From a virus, in the IMG/VR virus record IMGVR_UViG_3300042561_002100, positions 115,527 through 179,526 of that record: a stretch of 64,000 nt of DNA; one strand, given 5' to 3'. Both the position numbers and the translations under genes were made by a program. Below, piece after piece: positions 48,527-55,974 of the stretch; position 1 is the stretch's first letter; each line of letters opens with the position of its first letter. A model generated the notes under the pieces. That model saw nothing but the letters and a program-made list of their open reading frames with translations, did no database searches and was not told the origin of the DNA.

Positions 48527-48547
48527 TTAGAAGTCGTCAAGACACAT

Positions 48548-48621
48548 GGCCCAGTAGCTCAGCGGATTAGAGTAGTCGGCTTCTACCCGATATGTCGCAG
48601 GTTCGAATCCTGCCTGGGTCG
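48548..48621 (+). tRNA. tRNA-Arg(TCT)
   Basis: GGCCCAG/CTGGGTC acceptor; GTCGG-CT TCT AC-CCGAT; GCAGG-TTCGAAT-CCTGC; no encoded CCA. Confidence 0.95.
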
Positions 48622-48645
48622 TTTAATTCGTTACCTTTATCATTT

Positions 48646-51400: not shown

Positions 51401-52876
51401 TTGGAGAATACCATGACTTTTATGAACGCTCTTTCTACCGAAATGAATAATACGACCACCGCAAATGGTGCAAAGGCATACGAATCAACTCAAAACGAAT
51501 GTCTTGATCTCTACGGTTCCATCGGTGCTTGTCGTAATAATCTCACTCTAGCCGAGCGTCTATTCTTTGCGGCATACGAACAACATCCAGAAACGGCAGT
51601 ACGAATTCTGTTCTATTCTCGTGATATTCGCGGAGCAAGTCAAGGTGAACGCTCAGTTTTCCGGGCTCTTATGCCTAAACTCGCTCATAAGAATCCAAGA
51701 ATCGCAGCACGTCTGGTGTCTTTGATTCCTTATTATGGTCGCTGGGATGATCTTCTGTGTCTAGAGAATACTCCAGTTTGGAATGAAGTCTTGAAGACCA
51801 TTGAAACTCAACTAAAGACAGACATGAGTAGTGATAAGACTTCGCTGCTAGCCAAATGGCTTCCTTCTATCAATGCATCGTCTAAAGATAGTAAGCGTCT
51901 AGGTAGACTGATCGCAGCTCATATGGGTTGGTCTGAACGTCAATATCGCAAGAATCTTTCTGCACTTCGGGCTAAGATCAAGATTGTTGAAACTCCGATG
52001 TGTGTAAAAGAATGGAGTGTTATTGATTATGAGCATCTTCCTTCTCGTGCAGCCTTCATGTATCGCAAGGCATTTAAGAAACATGATGAGACTCGTTATT
52101 CCAATTATCTTTCAAGAGTAGAGAAAGGTGAAGCCAAGATCAATGCGGGAACATTATATCCTTATGATATTGTTAATAAGTATCTTTATCAAGGTGCTCA
52201 TAATGATAAGACTCTTGAGCTTCAATGGAATGCCTTGCCTAATTACATGGAAGATCTAGAATTTAATGGTCTTGTTGTTGCCGATGTTTCTGATTCTATG
52301 AAGAGATATGGTGGTATGCCGTTGGCAGTTTCCATCTCACTCGCAATGTATATTTCTGAGCGTAATCCATCTGAGATCTGGAAGAATAAGTTTCTGACTT
52401 TCTCTGAAGCACCAAAACTTCAAACTATTCTAGGCAACAACATTGAAGAAAAAATTAGGCATCTGAAACTAGCCGATTGGGGTTGGAATACCGATCTGAT
52501 TGCCGTTTTTGATACCATTCTGAAAGCAGCAACTGAAAATAAAGTCGCAGCTAAAGACATGCCACAAAAACTGATTATTGTTTCCGATATGCAATTTGAT
52601 GTGGCATGTAGATCCAATAAGCGTACTAACTTTGAGCAGATTCAAAAGATGTATCGGAAGTCTGGTTATGAGATGCCTCAGCTTATTTTCTGGAATGTAA
52701 ACGCAAGTGCTAATGTTCCGATTCAAGCTGATGACACTGGAACCGCATTAGTTTCTGGTTGTAGTCCTGCTATTCTGAAGTCTGTTCTGAGTGGTAAAAT
52801 CGTATCTCCTGTGGATGTTATGATGGATAGCCTTTATGTAGAGCGTTATGCTCCGATTGGTGAAGTTTTTGCCTGA
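51401..52876 (+). CDS. DUF2828-family protein with C-terminal vWA domain (putatively Ro60/TROVE-like)
   Basis: T.NGA.AY.ST...LDL; RDIRG..GER; YGRWDDL; AKWLPS; LYPYDIV; MIDAS-like DVSDSM; IIVSDMQFD; FWNV. Confidence 0.85.
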   Translation: MENTMTFMNALSTEMNNTTTANGAKAYESTQNECLDLYGSIGACRNNLTLAERLFFAAYEQHPETAVRILFYSRDIRGASQGERSVFRALMPKLAHKNPRIAARLVSLIPYYGRWDDLLCLENTPVWNEVLKTIETQLKTDMSSDKTSLLAKWLPSINASSKDSKRLGRLIAAHMGWSERQYRKNLSALRAKIKIVETPMCVKEWSVIDYEHLPSRAAFMYRKAFKKHDETRYSNYLSRVEKGEAKINAGTLYPYDIVNKYLYQGAHNDKTLELQWNALPNYMEDLEFNGLVVADVSDSMKRYGGMPLAVSISLAMYISERNPSEIWKNKFLTFSEAPKLQTILGNNIEEKIRHLKLADWGWNTDLIAVFDTILKAATENKVAAKDMPQKLIIVSDMQFDVACRSNKRTNFEQIQKMYRKSGYEMPQLIFWNVNASANVPIQADDTGTALVSGCSPAILKSVLSGKIVSPVDVMMDSLYVERYAPIGEVFA

Positions 52877-52946: not shown

Positions 52947-53062
52947 GGGCGGGTAGCTCAGCTGGTAGAGCAGTAGAACACTTAAAACAAATCTAGTCTA
53001 GATTTTAACAGCATTATAAATACAAAATCTCCGGGTCCTAGGTTCAAGTCCTAGTCCGCCCA
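52947..53062 (+). ncRNA. tRNA-like RNA 1 with 50-nt anticodon loop carrying motif copy C
   Basis: Acceptor GGGCGGG/TCCGCCC; D arm GCTC-AGCTGGTA-GAGC; T arm CTAGG-TTCAAGT-CCTAG; no assignable anticodon. Confidence 0.8.
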
Positions 53063-53137: not shown

Positions 53138-53374
53138 ATGTTCAATTTCATTTCCAACATCTTATTCCCATTTCTTGTTTCTGTTGCTATTGGTTGTTAT
53201 ATAGGATCAAGTTATATGAGGGATATGACTGTTATCTACTGTAATGAAAATCCTACAATTTGCCAACAAGAATACAAAATCACAAAATCTAAGTATCCAA
53301 ATGTTAATTTTACTGTAGAAGCTCCCACCATCGGTCAAGAAAAACCCAAAGTGAACATTATTGATACTAAATAA
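53138..53374 (+). CDS. Small membrane protein
   Basis: N-terminal TM helix; YC.ENPT.C motif. Confidence 0.6.
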   Translation: MFNFISNILFPFLVSVAIGCYIGSSYMRDMTVIYCNENPTICQQEYKITKSKYPNVNFTVEAPTIGQEKPKVNIIDTK

Positions 53375-53379
53375 CCATC

Positions 53380-53453
53380 AGCGGGCGAGTGTAACGGTAG
53401 TCACGTCGGGCTCATAACCCGGAGGAATATGGGTTCAATTCCCAGGTCCGCCA
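53380..53453 (+). tRNA. tRNA-fMet(CAT), initiator type
   Basis: TCGGG-CT CAT AA-CCCGG with three G-C pairs; 1:72 mismatch; TTCAATT T loop; CTAAATA at 53367. Confidence 0.85.
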
Positions 53454-53454
53454 T

Positions 53455-53510
53455 TAGATGATTCAGCAATTTCAAAACTTTCTTATTGGTTTAGAAAACA
53501 AAATCATCTA
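53455..53510 (+). ncRNA. CAGCA stem motif, copy E
   Basis: TAGATGATT-CAGCAATT-[TTTCT/AGAAA]-ACAA-AATCATCTA. Confidence 0.8.
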
Positions 53511-53517
53511 GTTCATT

Positions 53518-53616
53518 AGAAGAGTAGCCCAATTGGTTGAGGCGAGCGTAGAAACAAAAATCATCTTTTTGAGATGATTCAGCATTATCTTTCACCGAAG
53601 GACGCTTTGATGTTGG
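53518..53616 (+). ncRNA. tRNA-like RNA 2, 5' part (52-nt anticodon loop with motif copy F), split by IS
   Basis: TA-GCC..TGGTT..GGC D arm; AGCGT/ACGCT anticodon stem; GTTGG T-stem 5' strand just before the IS. Confidence 0.7.
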
Positions 53617-54896
53617 ATGAACTACTGCGAAGCTAAAGACTACGCGGTTTCCTGCTTCACAGAAGTTGCCTCTAGTTCCTTATGAACCTTTGGTCTTACA
53701 CTATCTCCACAGGCAGACACGGTAGTTCCTACCGCCAAAATGTTTTTCGCCGCATTAATGTCTCTATCATGATGACTACCACAATCAGGACAAGTCCATT
53801 CTCGGACATTTAACGGCATTTTAGTTTGAATAGAACCACAAGAGGAACAAGTTTTACTAGAAGGATACCATTGGTTAATAATAATTAACTCACGCCCATA
53901 CCAGTTGCATTTGTACTTCAAATAACTGCGAAACTGATACCAACCTTGTTCGCTAATTGCTCTGGATAACTTGCGGTTCTTAACCATATTTTTGATTTTT
54001 AAGTCCTCAAGAACGATAACTTGGTTTTCGTTAACGAGTTGTCTTGAGACTTGATGATGAAAGTTTAGTCTAATGAACTTAATTTTTTCATACTGTCTTG
54101 CGACTTTTAATCTTGCTTTGTTTCTGTTTTTAGAACCTTTTTGTTTTTTATAAAGTTTCTTTTGAAGTTTCTTTAATTTTTGATACTCTTTCTTTAAATC
54201 TGGAGACTTGATTTTATCTCCACTGGAGGTTGTAGCAAAAGTAGTAATACCCAAGTCAATACCAATTTGGTTGTTTACTTTAGGTAATGGTTCAATAGAA
54301 ACCTCAAGATTAAAAGAAACAAACCACTTTCCAGAAGGTTCAAGTATAATATAAATATACTTGATTTCTTGATTTTGTGGTAGTTGTCTATGAAACCTGA
54401 TGTTTAATGGTTGTTTGTTTTTAGCAATAAAGAACTTTCCGTCTTTAATGGAAAAAGCGCAAGTGTCAAGACCAATAGAATTGGTTCCAGACTTTTTCTT
54501 GAAGTTTGGAAAACCACAATTTCCTTTAAAGAACTTTTTATAAGTTCCGTCAAGTTCGTAAATAGAATACCTTAAAGGTATAATAGATACTTCACTCAAC
54601 CAAGAGTATTCAGGTTCTTTTTTAAGTTGCGTAAGTATTTTTGCTGTGTCGTAGTAAGACAAAGACTTATTTTCTTGTTTCCAAGATTTTTGTCTCAAAT
54701 CAAGAAAATAATTCCAGACCAATCTAGAACACCCAAGTGTCTTACGAAGCAAAATTTCTTGTTCTTTATTTGGATATAGTCTAAATCTAAATCCTTGACG
54801 CACTTGGGTTAAATGCATTATACTTACACAACTATTTATTAAAGTTTAATTCTTGACCCCGATGCTAAAGACATCGGGGATTGCGGATTAATTTAG
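53617..54896 (-). mobile_element. IS200/IS605-family element, tnpB only (IS1341-like)
   Basis: Subterminal hairpins sharing loop CTAAAGA at 53627-53646 and 54857-54879; no tnpA; ends uncertain by 1-2 nt. Confidence 0.85.
53640..54818 (-). CDS. tnpB: TnpB RNA-guided nuclease
   Basis: HTH FRLYPNKEQ..GCSR.VWN; RuvC IGIDLG / LEDL / DRDINAAKNI; zinc finger CSSC..CPDC. Confidence 0.95.
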   Translation of the reverse strand: MHLTQVRQGFRFRLYPNKEQEILLRKTLGCSRLVWNYFLDLRQKSWKQENKSLSYYDTAKILTQLKKEPEYSWLSEVSIIPLRYSIYELDGTYKKFFKGNCGFPNFKKKSGTNSIGLDTCAFSIKDGKFFIAKNKQPLNIRFHRQLPQNQEIKYIYIILEPSGKWFVSFNLEVSIEPLPKVNNQIGIDLGITTFATTSSGDKIKSPDLKKEYQKLKKLQKKLYKKQKGSKNRNKARLKVARQYEKIKFIRLNFHHQVSRQLVNENQVIVLEDLKIKNMVKNRKLSRAISEQGWYQFRSYLKYKCNWYGRELIIINQWYPSSKTCSSCGSIQTKMPLNVREWTCPDCGSHHDRDINAAKNILAVGTTVSACGDSVRPKVHKELEATSVKQETA

Positions 54897-54916
54897 TTCA
54901 TGTCCATCCTACTCTG
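54897..54916 (+). ncRNA. tRNA-like RNA 2, 3' part
   Basis: TTCATGT-CCATC-CTACTCT-G supplies T loop, T-stem 3' strand and acceptor 3' strand when the IS is removed. Confidence 0.55.
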
Positions 54917-54943
54917 TTGGTAATCAATTTCAATTATAATATT

Positions 54944-55111
54944 ATGTTAAAAATTACAAGCGGCATCACAAAACATCTCTGCGGCTCTTCACCATATTAT
55001 CACATTGAAGATAAAGACTTATCATCAGAACACTGGACTACCTTCAATCATGAGGGGTTAAAAGAACAACACAAAGAAGCCATTTGCCTTTTTGTGACCA
55101 ATTGCACTTAA
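54944..55111 (+). CDS. Hypothetical protein
   Basis: ATG 54944; the track start lies inside the IS end. Confidence 0.45.
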   Translation: MLKITSGITKHLCGSSPYYHIEDKDLSSEHWTTFNHEGLKEQHKEAICLFVTNCT

Positions 55112-55242
55112 AAAATGGGAATAATGAAATACTTTTTGGGTACTGTGGTTCATAAGAGACTTATTCTCCCACCACAATAATTAAGACTGTCTAAATAATA
55201 TCCAACAGACTTTAACACCACAAAAACGATCACTTAGTCTGT

Positions 55243-55974
55243 GTGATCTCAAGGAAACAAATGATGTACTCAAATCAATTTGCCGCAGCAATCAAGGTAA
55301 ACAATAAAATTCTCCGGGAGTTTGGAGACACTGTTTATCTTCCCTTCGGTTCCGAATATCAAATTCGTCTTAAAAATCTCAATACAACAAGAGCCAAAGT
55401 AACAGTTGAAATTGACGGTCAGAATGTTACTGATGGTGGTCTTGTTATTGACTCATTTCAAACTGTTGATCTAGAACGATTCATTCGTAATGGTAATCTA
55501 TCAGAAGGAAATCGGTTTAAATTCATTGAACGAACTTCTAAAATTGAAGATCATCGCGGAATTAAACTAGAAGATGGATTGATTACAATTCGTTATGAGT
55601 ATGAGATTTTCTCATATAATGTTAATTATTCAGCCGATATAGTACAAAAGAATAATTTGATTAATTGTTCTTATCGTAGTATGAACATTAACTCAGGACC
55701 AACAGCTAAGTTAACCTCTCACTCTGAAACTGGAATTACCGTAGAAGGTTCCAAAAGCAATCAAAAGTTCAATACTACTTCTTGGAGAGGATCAATTGGC
55801 GGCTCTCATGTGATGGTTATTAAACTTCTTGGTGAAACAGAAGAGAACAAAAAAGTAAGAGAACCCGTTACCGTCAAGACTAAACTAGAGTGTAAAACTT
55901 GCGGAACAACTAATCCTGTAACCTCAAAGTTCTGTTCTGAGTGTGGAACCTCTTTAGAGATTGTAGGTGGTTAA
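55243..55974 (+). CDS. Conserved phage protein with C-terminal zinc ribbon
   Basis: V.LPFGSEY.IRLKN...V.IDG.NV...DLERF; CKTC..CSEC; probable start 55261. Confidence 0.75.
   Translation: MISRKQMMYSNQFAAAIKVNNKILREFGDTVYLPFGSEYQIRLKNLNTTRAKVTVEIDGQNVTDGGLVIDSFQTVDLERFIRNGNLSEGNRFKFIERTSKIEDHRGIKLEDGLITIRYEYEIFSYNVNYSADIVQKNNLINCSYRSMNINSGPTAKLTSHSETGITVEGSKSNQKFNTTSWRGSIGGSHVMVIKLLGETEENKKVREPVTVKTKLECKTCGTTNPVTSKFCSECGTSLEIVGG

What the first reader, a model, noticed from the sequence alone, without database searches (positions are those of the whole stretch)
53518..54916. Second tRNA mimic split in its T-arm by the tnpB element
Seen: removing ~53617-54896 joins GTTGG to TTCATGT-CCATC-CTACTCT-G, giving a T arm (one mismatch) and an acceptor 3' strand. 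CTACTCT pairs fully with AGAGTAG (53521-27) and at 5 of 7 positions with AGAAGAG (53518-24). Automated tRNA finders would miss this gene. Inference: a recent insertion inactivated one member of the RNA system; junctions are uncertain by 1-2 nt.
Basis: partly seen in the sequence, partly recalled or inferred. Interest (0 to 1): 0.72.

Follow-up and report, generated by a model that had tools for sequence, protein, structure and literature searches.

The report
tRNA-like RNA gene split by TnpB element
A small mobile element carrying the RNA-guided nuclease TnpB has landed exactly in the T-loop of a tRNA-shaped RNA gene that sits beside a Ro60-like gene in a cyanophage; this is a clear natural example of a known kind of event, and removing the element would no longer restore a good gene.

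Summary
A 1,280-nt tnpB-only IS200/IS605-type element (53617-54896, minus strand) separates a 99-nt 5' part (53518-53616) from a 20-nt 3' stub (54897-54916) of a tRNA-like RNA.

- **Junction:** A relative whose Ro60-like protein is 95% identical (L002) carries the uninterrupted gene. A second intact allele (L050) shows compensatory changes in the acceptor, anticodon and T stems.
- **Element ends:** These are fixed by four other insertion sites of 1,280-nt copies. The transposon-adjacent motif (TAM) is TTGAA, the complement of the T-loop TTCAA. An 81%-identical (DNA) copy splits a phage tRNA-Pro at the same position.
- **Corrections:** The true acceptor register is AGAAGAG (53518-24), not AGAGTAG. 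The stub pairs with it at only 5 of 7 positions, has a T-stem mismatch, and has lost the family-invariant A58. ARAGORN finds nothing after in-silico excision.
- **Age:** "Recent" is not supported. The RE hairpin has two broken pairs, and one sampled copy carries a frameshifted tnpB.

The neighbouring DUF2828 protein folds like Ro60, so the RNA is probably a Y-RNA-like partner. This scan has already noted tRNA genes split by TnpB elements on other DNA. The mechanism is known and the interest is moderate.

The parts
53518..53616 (+). 5' part (99 nt) of tRNA-like RNA 'mimic 2'. Acceptor 5' strand 53518-24; U8 A9 53525-26; D arm 53527-43; G26 53544; anticodon-stem 5' strand AGCGT 53545-49; 52-nt module 53550-53601 (hairpin 53559-79, CAGCATTA 53580-87); anticodon-stem 3' strand ACGCT 53602-06; variable loop TTGAT 53607-11; T-stem 5' strand GTTGG 53612-16.
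   Evidence: Aligns with the intact alleles L002:8381-8480 and L050. The L002 allele scores 36 bits on Rfam tRNA. Anticodon-stem change is compensatory: AGCGT/ACGCT here against AGCTT/AAGCT in L002. Hairpin from the fold.
53617..54896 (-). tnpB-only IS200/IS605-type element, 1,280 nt. The LE is at the high coordinate and the RE at the low coordinate.
   Evidence: Ends and length are identical in copies at four other sites with 89-90% nt identity. The RE end GGTAGTTCAT is conserved in all copies. The element is absent from L002 and L050.
53640..54818 (-). tnpB ORF, 392 aa.
   Evidence: Pfam HTH_OrfB_IS605, OrfB_IS605 and Cas12f1-like_TNB. ISDra2 TnpB 8H1J matches at E 8e-63. DLG188, EDL271 and RDINA352 motifs are present. 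The stop lies six codons earlier than in relatives.
53624..53648 (-). RE subterminal hairpin, the last stem of the presumed guide-RNA (omega RNA) scaffold. Two pairs are broken in this copy only.
   Evidence: Alignment A4 columns 203-227 carry compensatory changes in the other copies. The window has C-A at 205/225 and U-U at 209/221.
54857..54879 (-). LE subterminal hairpin (CCCCGATG ... CATCGGGG).
   Evidence: Read from the sequence. Conserved in L009-L012.
53597..53616 (-). Predicted guide of the omega RNA, that is the RE-flanking sequence CCAACATCAAAGCGTCCTTC. It is the antisense of the variable loop and T-stem side of the RNA gene.
   Evidence: The position follows from the established TnpB model (10.1101/2023.03.14.532601). 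The first 13 nt match the intact L002 allele next to its TTGAA. Not tested.
54897..54916 (+). 3' stub of mimic 2. T-loop TTCATGT 54897-903; T-stem 3' strand CCATC 54904-08; acceptor 3' strand CTACTCT 54909-15; discriminator G 54916. Its first five bases are the complement of the element's TAM (ATGAA on the minus strand).
   Evidence: 14/20 identical to L002:8481-8500, chance P 8e-5. Poorly complementary to the 5' part.
54926..55191 (+). Small-ORF cassette (ORF 54944-55111, 55 aa) lying between the stub and the point where homology to L002 resumes (55192). It is not part of the RNA gene. It is part of the 1,575 nt that replace 26 nt of L002.
   Evidence: blastn. ORF. A 75% nt relative sits in an unrelated phage context, L067-69. 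L050 has a different small ORF at this place.
51401..52876 (+). Context: DUF2828/DUF7788 protein with a Ro60-like predicted fold, the presumed protein partner of the RNA array.
   Evidence: Pfam. AlphaFold2 model, mean pLDDT 69.5. The ten best Foldseek PDB matches are all Ro60/TROVE, E 6e-6 to 3e-3.
52947..53062 (+). Context: intact paralogue 'mimic 1' with the same design.
   Evidence: Rfam tRNA 42.7 bits with a 50-nt insert. ARAGORN with the intron option finds it.

Best explanation
A non-autonomous, tnpB-only IS200/IS605-type insertion sequence of 1,280 nt inserted on the minus strand just 3' of a TTGAA transposon-adjacent motif (TAM). In this gene that motif is the complement of T-loop positions 54-58. 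The target is a tRNA-shaped RNA with acceptor, D and T arms, in which a 52-nt conserved hairpin plus CAGCAUUA module replaces the anticodon loop. It is one of an array encoded next to a Ro60-like (DUF2828) protein of a Synechococcus-type cyanophage, and it most likely serves as a Y-RNA-like partner of that protein.

The insertion cuts the gene between nucleotides 53 and 54. The 5' 99 nt keep the D arm, the anticodon stem and the module. The 3' 20 nt are left 1.28 kb downstream, so the tRNA-like body cannot form in one transcript.

Shown: the insertion, its exact borders, the intact alleles, and the conservation of the RNA fold.

Inferred:
- The element's guide RNA carries the flanking 16-20 nt and could direct TnpB to cut intact alleles.
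- The RNA binds the Ro60-like protein.
- The stub has since drifted, or came from another allele by recombination. It no longer matches the 5' part, and the element itself shows early decay.
For: - Empty site: L002 carries the intact gene (Rfam tRNA 36 bits), and homology breaks exactly at 53616/53617.
- Second intact allele: L050 has compensated acceptor, anticodon and T stems.
- Family fold: in 12 intact members the acceptor is 98.8% paired with all 7 pairs covarying, and the T stem is 100% paired with 4 of 5 pairs covarying. No shuffle out of 500 reaches the observed values, and slid controls give 37-50% paired.
- Element borders: 1,280 nt with identical ends at four further sites. The TAM is TTGAA at 5 of 8 distinct sites.
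- Same target position elsewhere: the copy in L012 splits tRNA-Pro(TGG) at the same T-loop position, and ARAGORN restores the tRNA after removal.
- Nuclease: three Pfam domains, a match to ISDra2 TnpB at E 8e-63, and catalytic motifs present.
- Guide-RNA region: conserved structure with 5 compensated pairs.
- Non-autonomous: no Y1 or serine TnpA in the 179.5-kb record, and a single tnpB.
- Independent assemblies carry the same split allele.
- The neighbouring protein has a Ro60-like fold.
Against: - The stub differs from L002 at 6 of 20 positions. It leaves 3 of 12 stem positions unpaired and lacks A58. A simple recent insertion into an L002-type allele therefore does not explain the present sequence.
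- 275 nt with a small ORF lie between the stub and the resumption of homology and are absent from L002. The difference between the two phages is thus more than one insertion.
- No expression data exist for the RNA, the guide RNA or TnpB.
- The Ro60-like assignment rests on a medium-confidence model (pLDDT 69.5, TM about 0.5).
Confidence: 0.88

Rival explanations
1. Homing with co-conversion. The element did not transpose into this phage. It was copied in from a co-infecting relative after TnpB cut the intact allele, and repair dragged in the donor's right flank (the non-cognate stub and the small-ORF cassette). This is a rival only for the history, not for what the feature is.
For: - No TnpA in the record.
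- The guide's first 13 nt match the L002 allele beside a consensus TTGAA.
- Identity to L002 is 97-100% on both sides but breaks down from about 53548 to 55191.
- The stub's three stem changes are what a third allele with a compensated 5' half would show. L002 and L050 also differ at 6 of 20 positions there.
- TnpB homing is an established mechanism (10.1101/2023.03.14.532601).
Against: - No donor allele with 5' strands AGAGTAG and GATGG was found in viral or metagenome contigs or in the genome.
- The T-stem 5' strand next to the element is L002-type and mismatched with the stub. A donor-derived tract would therefore already have been mismatched.
- The A58-to-T change is outside family variation under any allele.
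Confidence: 0.3
2. Old insertion with decay in place. The element transposed into an L002-like allele with TnpA supplied in trans, and the released 3' stub then accumulated six substitutions under no constraint.
For: - All six differences hit positions that are constrained in intact members and none is compensated.
- The element also shows damage: two broken RE pairs, an early stop, a non-consensus TAM, and a 29-nt deletion in one sampled copy.
Against: - The flanks are 97-100% identical to L002, so six changes in 20 nt is far above the local neutral level.
- The 5' part has kept every conserved position.
- The two acceptor changes happen to create a perfect 7/7 complement to a shifted register. 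Only 1 of 189 double substitutions does that.
Confidence: 0.4
3. The 20-nt 'stub' is unrelated sequence and the real 3' end was deleted. The resemblance to a T arm and acceptor strand would be chance.
For: It pairs poorly with the 5' part, and ARAGORN finds no gene after excision.
Against: - 14/20 identity to the orthologous 3' end at the exact expected position, P = 8e-5.
- It starts with TTCA directly at the element's LE, as the TAM rule requires.
Confidence: 0.03
4. The two pieces still work together as a split RNA joined in trans, as in split tRNA genes of some archaea.
For: The 7/7 complementarity of CTACTCT with AGAGTAG.
Against: - There are no complementary leader or trailer sequences to bring the halves together.
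- The T stem is mismatched and A58 is lost.
- The shifted register destroys U8, A9 and the D stem.
- The stub lies directly against the antisense element, with no promoter seen in the sequence read.
Confidence: 0.02

Closest known systems
ISDra2-type TnpB elements of the IS200/IS605 family (tnpB-only, IS1341-like); RNA-guided homing model of Meers et al. (10.1101/2023.03.14.532601)
   Same: - Same three-domain TnpB (E 8e-63 to PDB 8H1J/8EXA).
- A 5-nt TAM (TTGAA here, TTGAT in ISDra2 from my own knowledge).
- Insertion 3' of the TAM without target duplication.
- Subterminal hairpins.
- Guide-RNA scaffold overlapping the 3' end of tnpB, with the flanking DNA as guide.
   Different: - No TnpA in the phage.
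- The target is a tRNA-like RNA gene.
- The TAM is the complement of the T-loop.
- This copy has a weakened RE hairpin and a slightly shortened ORF.
- It is not the IS607/RAGATH-18 type: the RAGATH-18 match is only 20.9 bits against a cut-off of 44.9, and the RNA overlaps the coding sequence.
YrlA / bacterial and phage Y RNAs bound by Ro60 (Chen et al. 2014, PMC4201824); phage Ro60 of Thermus phage phiLo (PMC12135203, PDB 9L5Y)
   Same: A tRNA-like non-coding RNA encoded beside a Ro60-fold protein, with D and T arms and a 7-bp acceptor stem.
   Different: - In YrlA the RNA ends form the Ro60-binding stem and the acceptor-like stem is a closed stem-loop. Here the ends are at the acceptor, as in a real tRNA, and a conserved module replaces the anticodon loop.
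- The protein is DUF2828/DUF7788, not a Pfam TROVE match.
- No Rfam Y-RNA family matched, even at E up to 10.
tRNA genes as targets of mobile DNA
   Same: A mobile element sits inside a conserved tRNA loop. A related copy splits a true tRNA-Pro at the same nucleotide.
   Different: - The element carries no replacement copy.
- The target is a mimic, not a decoding tRNA.
- Only 2 of 8 sites of this element family are tRNA-like, so the T-loop hit follows from the TAM and is not a dedicated specificity.
'tRNA-Pseudo-GCA' annotated after gp345 in Synechococcus phages B3 and B23 (MN695334, MN695335)
   Same: The same gene order in cultured Kyanoviridae: a 491-aa gene, then a 110-nt tRNA-like gene, then the same spacer motif.
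   Different: There it is uninterrupted and annotated as a tRNA pseudogene. No function is assigned.

Membership tests
IS200/IS605 family, tnpB-only element | TnpB with HTH, RuvC-type OrfB_IS605 and zinc-ribbon domains | tested here: met
   Pfam E 3e-19, 3e-27 and 8e-28. Full-length match to ISDra2 TnpB.
IS200/IS605 family, tnpB-only element | RuvC catalytic Asp/Glu/Asp present | tested here: met
   DLG at 188, EDL at 271 and RDINA at 352 align with conserved motifs of TnpB-type nucleases. Activity was not tested.
IS200/IS605 family, tnpB-only element | Insertion 3' of a short conserved motif (TAM) with no target-site duplication | tested here: met
   The empty site in L002 reads ...TTTGAA|CCAAC... 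on the minus strand with nothing duplicated. TTGAA is found at 5 of 8 sites.
IS200/IS605 family, tnpB-only element | Subterminal hairpins at both ends | tested here: met
   LE 54857-79. RE 53624-48 with compensatory changes among copies; two pairs are broken in the window copy.
IS200/IS605 family, tnpB-only element | Guide RNA (omega RNA) scaffold overlapping the 3' end of tnpB | tested here: inconclusive
   Conserved predicted structure with 5 compensated pairs over the last 234 nt. No RNA data. RAGATH-18 is below its cut-off.
IS200/IS605 family, tnpB-only element | Y1 transposase TnpA in the element or genome | tested here: not met
   No PF01797 and no PF00239 in the 179.5-kb record. The element is therefore non-autonomous. 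The record is estimated 83% complete.
tRNA (Rfam RF00005) | Cloverleaf with a 7-bp acceptor, D arm and T arm | tested here: not met
   For the window copy there is no Rfam or ARAGORN hit, and none after in-silico excision. The intact L002 allele does reach 36 bits against a cut-off of 29.
tRNA (Rfam RF00005) | 7-nt anticodon loop able to decode | tested here: not met
   A 52-nt module lies between the strands of the anticodon stem. Every family member has a 40-52-nt insert.
YrlA / Y RNA | Encoded next to a Ro60 (TROVE plus vWA) protein | tested here: met
   The DUF2828/DUF7788 protein lies 640 nt upstream. The ten best Foldseek matches are all Ro60. The model is of medium confidence.
YrlA / Y RNA | Match to a curated Y-RNA covariance model | tested here: not met
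   No Y-RNA or YrlA family among Rfam hits at gathering score or at E up to 10.
YrlA / Y RNA | RNA ends form the Ro60-binding stem; the acceptor-like stem is a closed stem-loop | tested here: not met
   Here the ends are at the acceptor stem and the conserved module sits in the anticodon loop. YrlA topology taken from PMC4201824.
YrlA / Y RNA | Physical binding to the Ro60-like protein | not testable with these tools
   Needs co-immunoprecipitation or a gel-shift assay.

The most novel reading that the evidence does not exclude
The element is, or recently was, an RNA-guided homing drive that spreads among co-infecting cyanophages. Its guide is the antisense of the Ro60-partner RNA gene, and its TAM is the near-universal T-loop TTCAA. 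It would therefore cut intact alleles and be copied in by repair. The non-cognate stub and the linked small-ORF cassette would be co-conversion scars. Alleles with TTCGA T-loops, such as L050, would be naturally immune.
Probability: 0.2. Interest if true: 0.6.

Novelty: new member of a known kind. Interest (0 to 1): 0.4.

Why it matters
The split itself is an ordinary consequence of a known transposon family. It is still useful in three ways.

1. The IS-free alleles it led to give independent, covariation-backed proof that these odd 'tRNAs with a 50-nt anticodon-loop module' are real, conserved RNA genes. They sit beside a Ro60-like protein in freshwater cyanophages, where cultured phages B3 and B23 annotate them as tRNA pseudogenes.
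2. It provides a natural knockout of one array member, found in several metagenomes. That copy is therefore dispensable, at least as a tRNA-shaped molecule.
3. It shows a TnpB family whose TAM is the complement of the T-loop. That explains why such elements repeatedly land at nucleotide 53/54 of tRNA-like genes, and it gives a defined guide and target pair for testing TnpB homing between phages.

Tried and rejected
- **Phage collection, DNA searches.** Megablast of 53300-55300 against GenBank phages gave no match. A distant search with 54897-55400 gave none.
- **Search for the stub's origin.** An exact search for the 20-nt stub in viral contigs gave none. A search for a cognate 5' half (AGAGTAG ... 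GATGG) in the whole 179.5-kb genome gave only chance hits in coding DNA.
- **Small-ORF protein as a handle on the pre-insertion allele.**
  - One weak unrelated hit in viral contigs (L048).
  - In the big protein collection it led only to the same split genotype (L070, L071) or to an unrelated phage context (L067-69).
- **RAGATH-18.** The match at 53649-53713 is 20.9 bits, below the cut-off of 44.9. That family belongs to IS607-type TnpB with an RNA that does not overlap the gene. I therefore did not file the element there.
- **Group I or II intron in the anticodon loop.** Rejected. There is no intron family hit in Rfam. The 52-nt module is a conserved hairpin plus motif that also occurs alone in the spacers.
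- **PDB sequence search with the DUF2828 protein.** No hit. Only the fold comparison showed the relation to Ro60.
Full report
**What is in the sequence.**
- On the + strand, GTTGG (53612-16) is followed at 53617 by ATGAAC...
- After ...TTTAG (54896) come TTCATGT (54897-903), CCATC (54904-08), CTACTCT (54909-15) and G (54916).
- Between them lies a 392-aa ORF on the minus strand (53640-54818). It carries the three Pfam domains of TnpB and matches ISDra2 TnpB over its full length (PDB 8H1J, E 8e-63).
- ARAGORN and Rfam find only tRNA-Arg (48547-48622), tRNA-Met (53380-53453) and, Rfam only, a 116-nt tRNA-like gene at 52947-53062. They find nothing at the finding's coordinates.

**The empty site exists and has the predicted junction.**
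- A search with the neighbouring 491-aa protein found a viral contig (L002) whose protein is 95% identical.
- Downstream, L002 has the same order of elements. At L002:8381-8500 it has an uninterrupted 120-nt gene that Rfam scores as tRNA at 36 bits against a cut-off of 29.
- That gene reads: acceptor AGAAGAG, then TA, D arm GCC-CAATTGGTTGA-GGC, G, anticodon stem AGCTT, a 50-nt module, AAGCT, variable loop TTGAT, T arm GTTGG-TTCAAAT-CCAGC, acceptor CTCTTCT, A.
- blastn shows that homology between the window and L002 ends exactly at 53616 (L002 8480) and resumes at 55192 (L002 8507).
- A metagenome contig (L050) carries a second intact allele with acceptor ACGAGAG/CTCTCGT and T stem GTCAG/CTGAC. 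Both are compensated relative to L002.

**The element's borders are exact.**
- Five viral loci with about 85% identical TnpB and thirteen loci from four look-ups of 91-92% identical proteins were aligned to the element.
- Copies at four other insertion sites are exactly 1,280 nt long, with the same first and last bases (CTAA(A/T)TTAATCC ... GGTAGTTCAT).
- In element orientation, the five bases before the left end are:

| TAM | Sites |
|---|---|
| TTGAA | 5 of 8 distinct sites |
| ATGAA | the window |
| AAGAA | 1 |
| TTAAA | 1 |

- The L002 empty site reads ...ATTTGAA|CCAACATC... on that strand. The element therefore inserted 3' of a consensus TTGAA with no duplication, as IS200/IS605 elements do.
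- TTGAA is the complement of the T-loop TTCAA.
- The copy in L012 sits at the same nucleotide of a genuine tRNA-Pro(TGG) gene, and ARAGORN recovers that tRNA once the element is removed in silico.
- Only 2 of 8 sites are tRNA-like. The T-loop hit is thus a consequence of the TAM and not a dedicated specificity.

**The RNA family is real.** Twelve intact members from five related contigs, including mimic 1 of the window, were aligned.
- With the tRNA-body structure imposed, 96.4% of cells form standard pairs, against 75% in shuffles and 37-50% when partners are slid.
- All 7 acceptor pairs and 4 of 5 T-stem pairs show changes on both sides.
- Acceptor cells are 98.8% paired and T-stem cells 100%.
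- A58 of the T-loop is invariant.
- Every member has a 40-52-nt insert in place of the anticodon loop, with a hairpin followed by CAGCA(A/T)T. The same motif stands alone in the hairpins between the genes.

**The neighbouring protein is Ro60-like.**
- It matches Pfam DUF2828 and DUF7788 and has no sequence match in the PDB.
- Its AlphaFold2 model has mean pLDDT 69.5. The ten best Foldseek matches are all Ro60/TROVE structures, led by a TROVE-domain crystal structure (9KOP) and the Ro60 of Thermus phage phiLo. E ranges from 6e-6 to 3e-3, and TM is about 0.5 to the best.
- Bacterial and phage Ro60 genes are known to be flanked by tRNA-like Y RNAs (YrlA; PMC4201824). In YrlA, however, the RNA ends form the Ro60-binding stem and the acceptor-like stem is closed. 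Here the topology is that of a tRNA, with the conserved module in the anticodon loop.
- No Rfam Y-RNA family matches.
- I therefore read these RNAs as working like Y RNAs without being YrlA members.
- Cultured Synechococcus phages B3 and B23 have the same arrangement, annotated as 'tRNA-Pseudo-GCA'.

- *Register.* The acceptor 5' strand is AGAAGAG (53518-24), as both intact alleles show. The AGAGTAG register would consume U8, A9 and G10.
- *Fit of the stub.* Against the true register the stub pairs at 5 of 7 positions. The T stem has a T-T mismatch and the T-loop is TTCATGT, with A58 replaced.
- *In-silico excision.* ARAGORN with the intron option detects the two intact mimic-2 alleles (L002, L050) and mimic 1 of the window, but not L002 mimic 1b. 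It finds nothing in the joined window sequence. Precise excision would not give back a family-typical RNA.
- *The stub is still homologous.* It matches L002's 3' end at 14 of 20 positions (P = 8e-5).
- *More than one insertion.* The 275 nt between the stub and 55192 carry a promoter-like stretch and a 55-aa ORF (54944-55111) that L002 lacks. L050 has a different small ORF there, and a 75% relative of the cassette sits in an unrelated phage. This is a variable slot, and the two phages differ here by more than one insertion.

**History: unresolved between two readings.**
- *Decay in place.* All six differences hit constrained positions, and none is compensated in the unchanged 5' strands. The element itself is worn:
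  - Its RE hairpin has two broken pairs that are intact in seven other copies.
  - One of those changes creates a stop six codons early.
  - The TAM is non-consensus.
  - An otherwise identical contig from another metagenome has a 29-nt frameshifting deletion at 54173-54201.
- *Import from a third allele by recombination, possibly TnpB-driven homing.*
  - The phage has no TnpA.
  - The flanks are 97-100% identical to L002, while 53548-55191 is not.
  - L002 and L050 also differ at 6 of 20 positions in this segment, with compensation.
  - No such third allele was found.
- *One oddity remains.* The two acceptor changes create a perfect complement to the register shifted by three. Only 1 of 189 possible double substitutions does that. 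A templated (quasi-palindrome) mutation before the insertion could do it. This is speculation.

**How it most likely works now.**
- The + strand transcript of the array can still give a 99-nt fragment with the D arm, the anticodon stem (AGCGU/ACGCU, compensated relative to L002) and the full module. It cannot close the acceptor and T arms, so tRNA-type end processing and the tRNA-shaped surface are lost.
- On the minus strand, by the established TnpB model (10.1101/2023.03.14.532601), the last 150-230 nt of the element plus 16-20 nt of flank (CCAACATCAAAGCGTCCTTC) would form the guide RNA.
- The first 13 nt of that guide match the intact L002 allele next to its TTGAA. The L050 allele has TCGAA and three mismatches.
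- Whether this copy is still active is untested.

**Verdict.** The kind of event is known, and this scan has already noted tRNA genes split by TnpB elements in other phages and in archaea (AI notes, not evidence). Interest is moderate. The value lies in validating the RNA family and in offering a natural knockout and a defined guide and target pair.

Noticed in passing
L012:1417-2702 and flanks: An 81%-identical (DNA) copy of the element splits a phage tRNA-Pro(TGG) gene between T-stem and T-loop, the same nucleotide as in the window. ARAGORN recovers a 75-nt tRNA-Pro after in-silico removal.
   Followed up: yes
L002:7801-7915: The 95% relative has an extra tRNA-like gene ('mimic 1b', acceptor GTCGTGT/ACACGGC) with its own spacer hairpin, between mimic 1 and the 78-aa ORF. 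The window lacks it, so copy number of the array varies between close relatives.
   Followed up: partly
L051:260-410 and 708-835: A metagenome contig with a tRNA array holds tRNA-like genes that share the D arm of mimic 2. They carry a different, longer (about 80-nt) anticodon-loop insert with a GGTCGAG(G/A)ATAAT..GGTTA motif. This may be a second family of module-bearing tRNA mimics.
   Followed up: no
window 54173-54201 (L070:1107-1153 region): A contig from another metagenome (JGI 3300049629) is identical to the window over 2.9 kb except for a 29-nt deletion inside tnpB that splits the ORF. Either tnpB is decaying in this lineage or it is an assembly error.
   Followed up: partly
window 53640-53648: A single A-to-T change in the RE hairpin both breaks a conserved pair and creates the TAG stop. 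This TnpB therefore ends six residues before its 398-aa relatives.
   Followed up: yes
window 54926-55191: The slot downstream of mimic 2 is variable. The window has a 55-aa ORF with its own promoter-like TATAAT, L050 has a different small ORF, and L002 has none. A 75% relative of the window's cassette lies in an unrelated phage (L067:2440-2590).
   Followed up: partly
L066 (MN695334.1 219837-221814): Cultured Synechococcus phage B3 (and B23) has a 491-aa hypothetical protein gp345, followed by a 110-nt 'tRNA-Pseudo-GCA' and the same spacer motif. An experimentally tractable phage therefore carries the system.
   Followed up: partly
window 53518-53527 with 54909-54915: AGAAGAGTAG offers two overlapping 7-nt registers. 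The stub CTACTCT is a perfect complement of the shifted one, and only 1 of 189 double substitutions of CTCTTCT gives this. Unexplained.
   Followed up: partly
L005:5520-5813, L006, L007: More distant relatives (Ro60-like protein 64-66% identical) carry 15-25 tRNA genes and a permuted cyanobacterial-type tmRNA just upstream of the Ro60-like gene.
   Followed up: no
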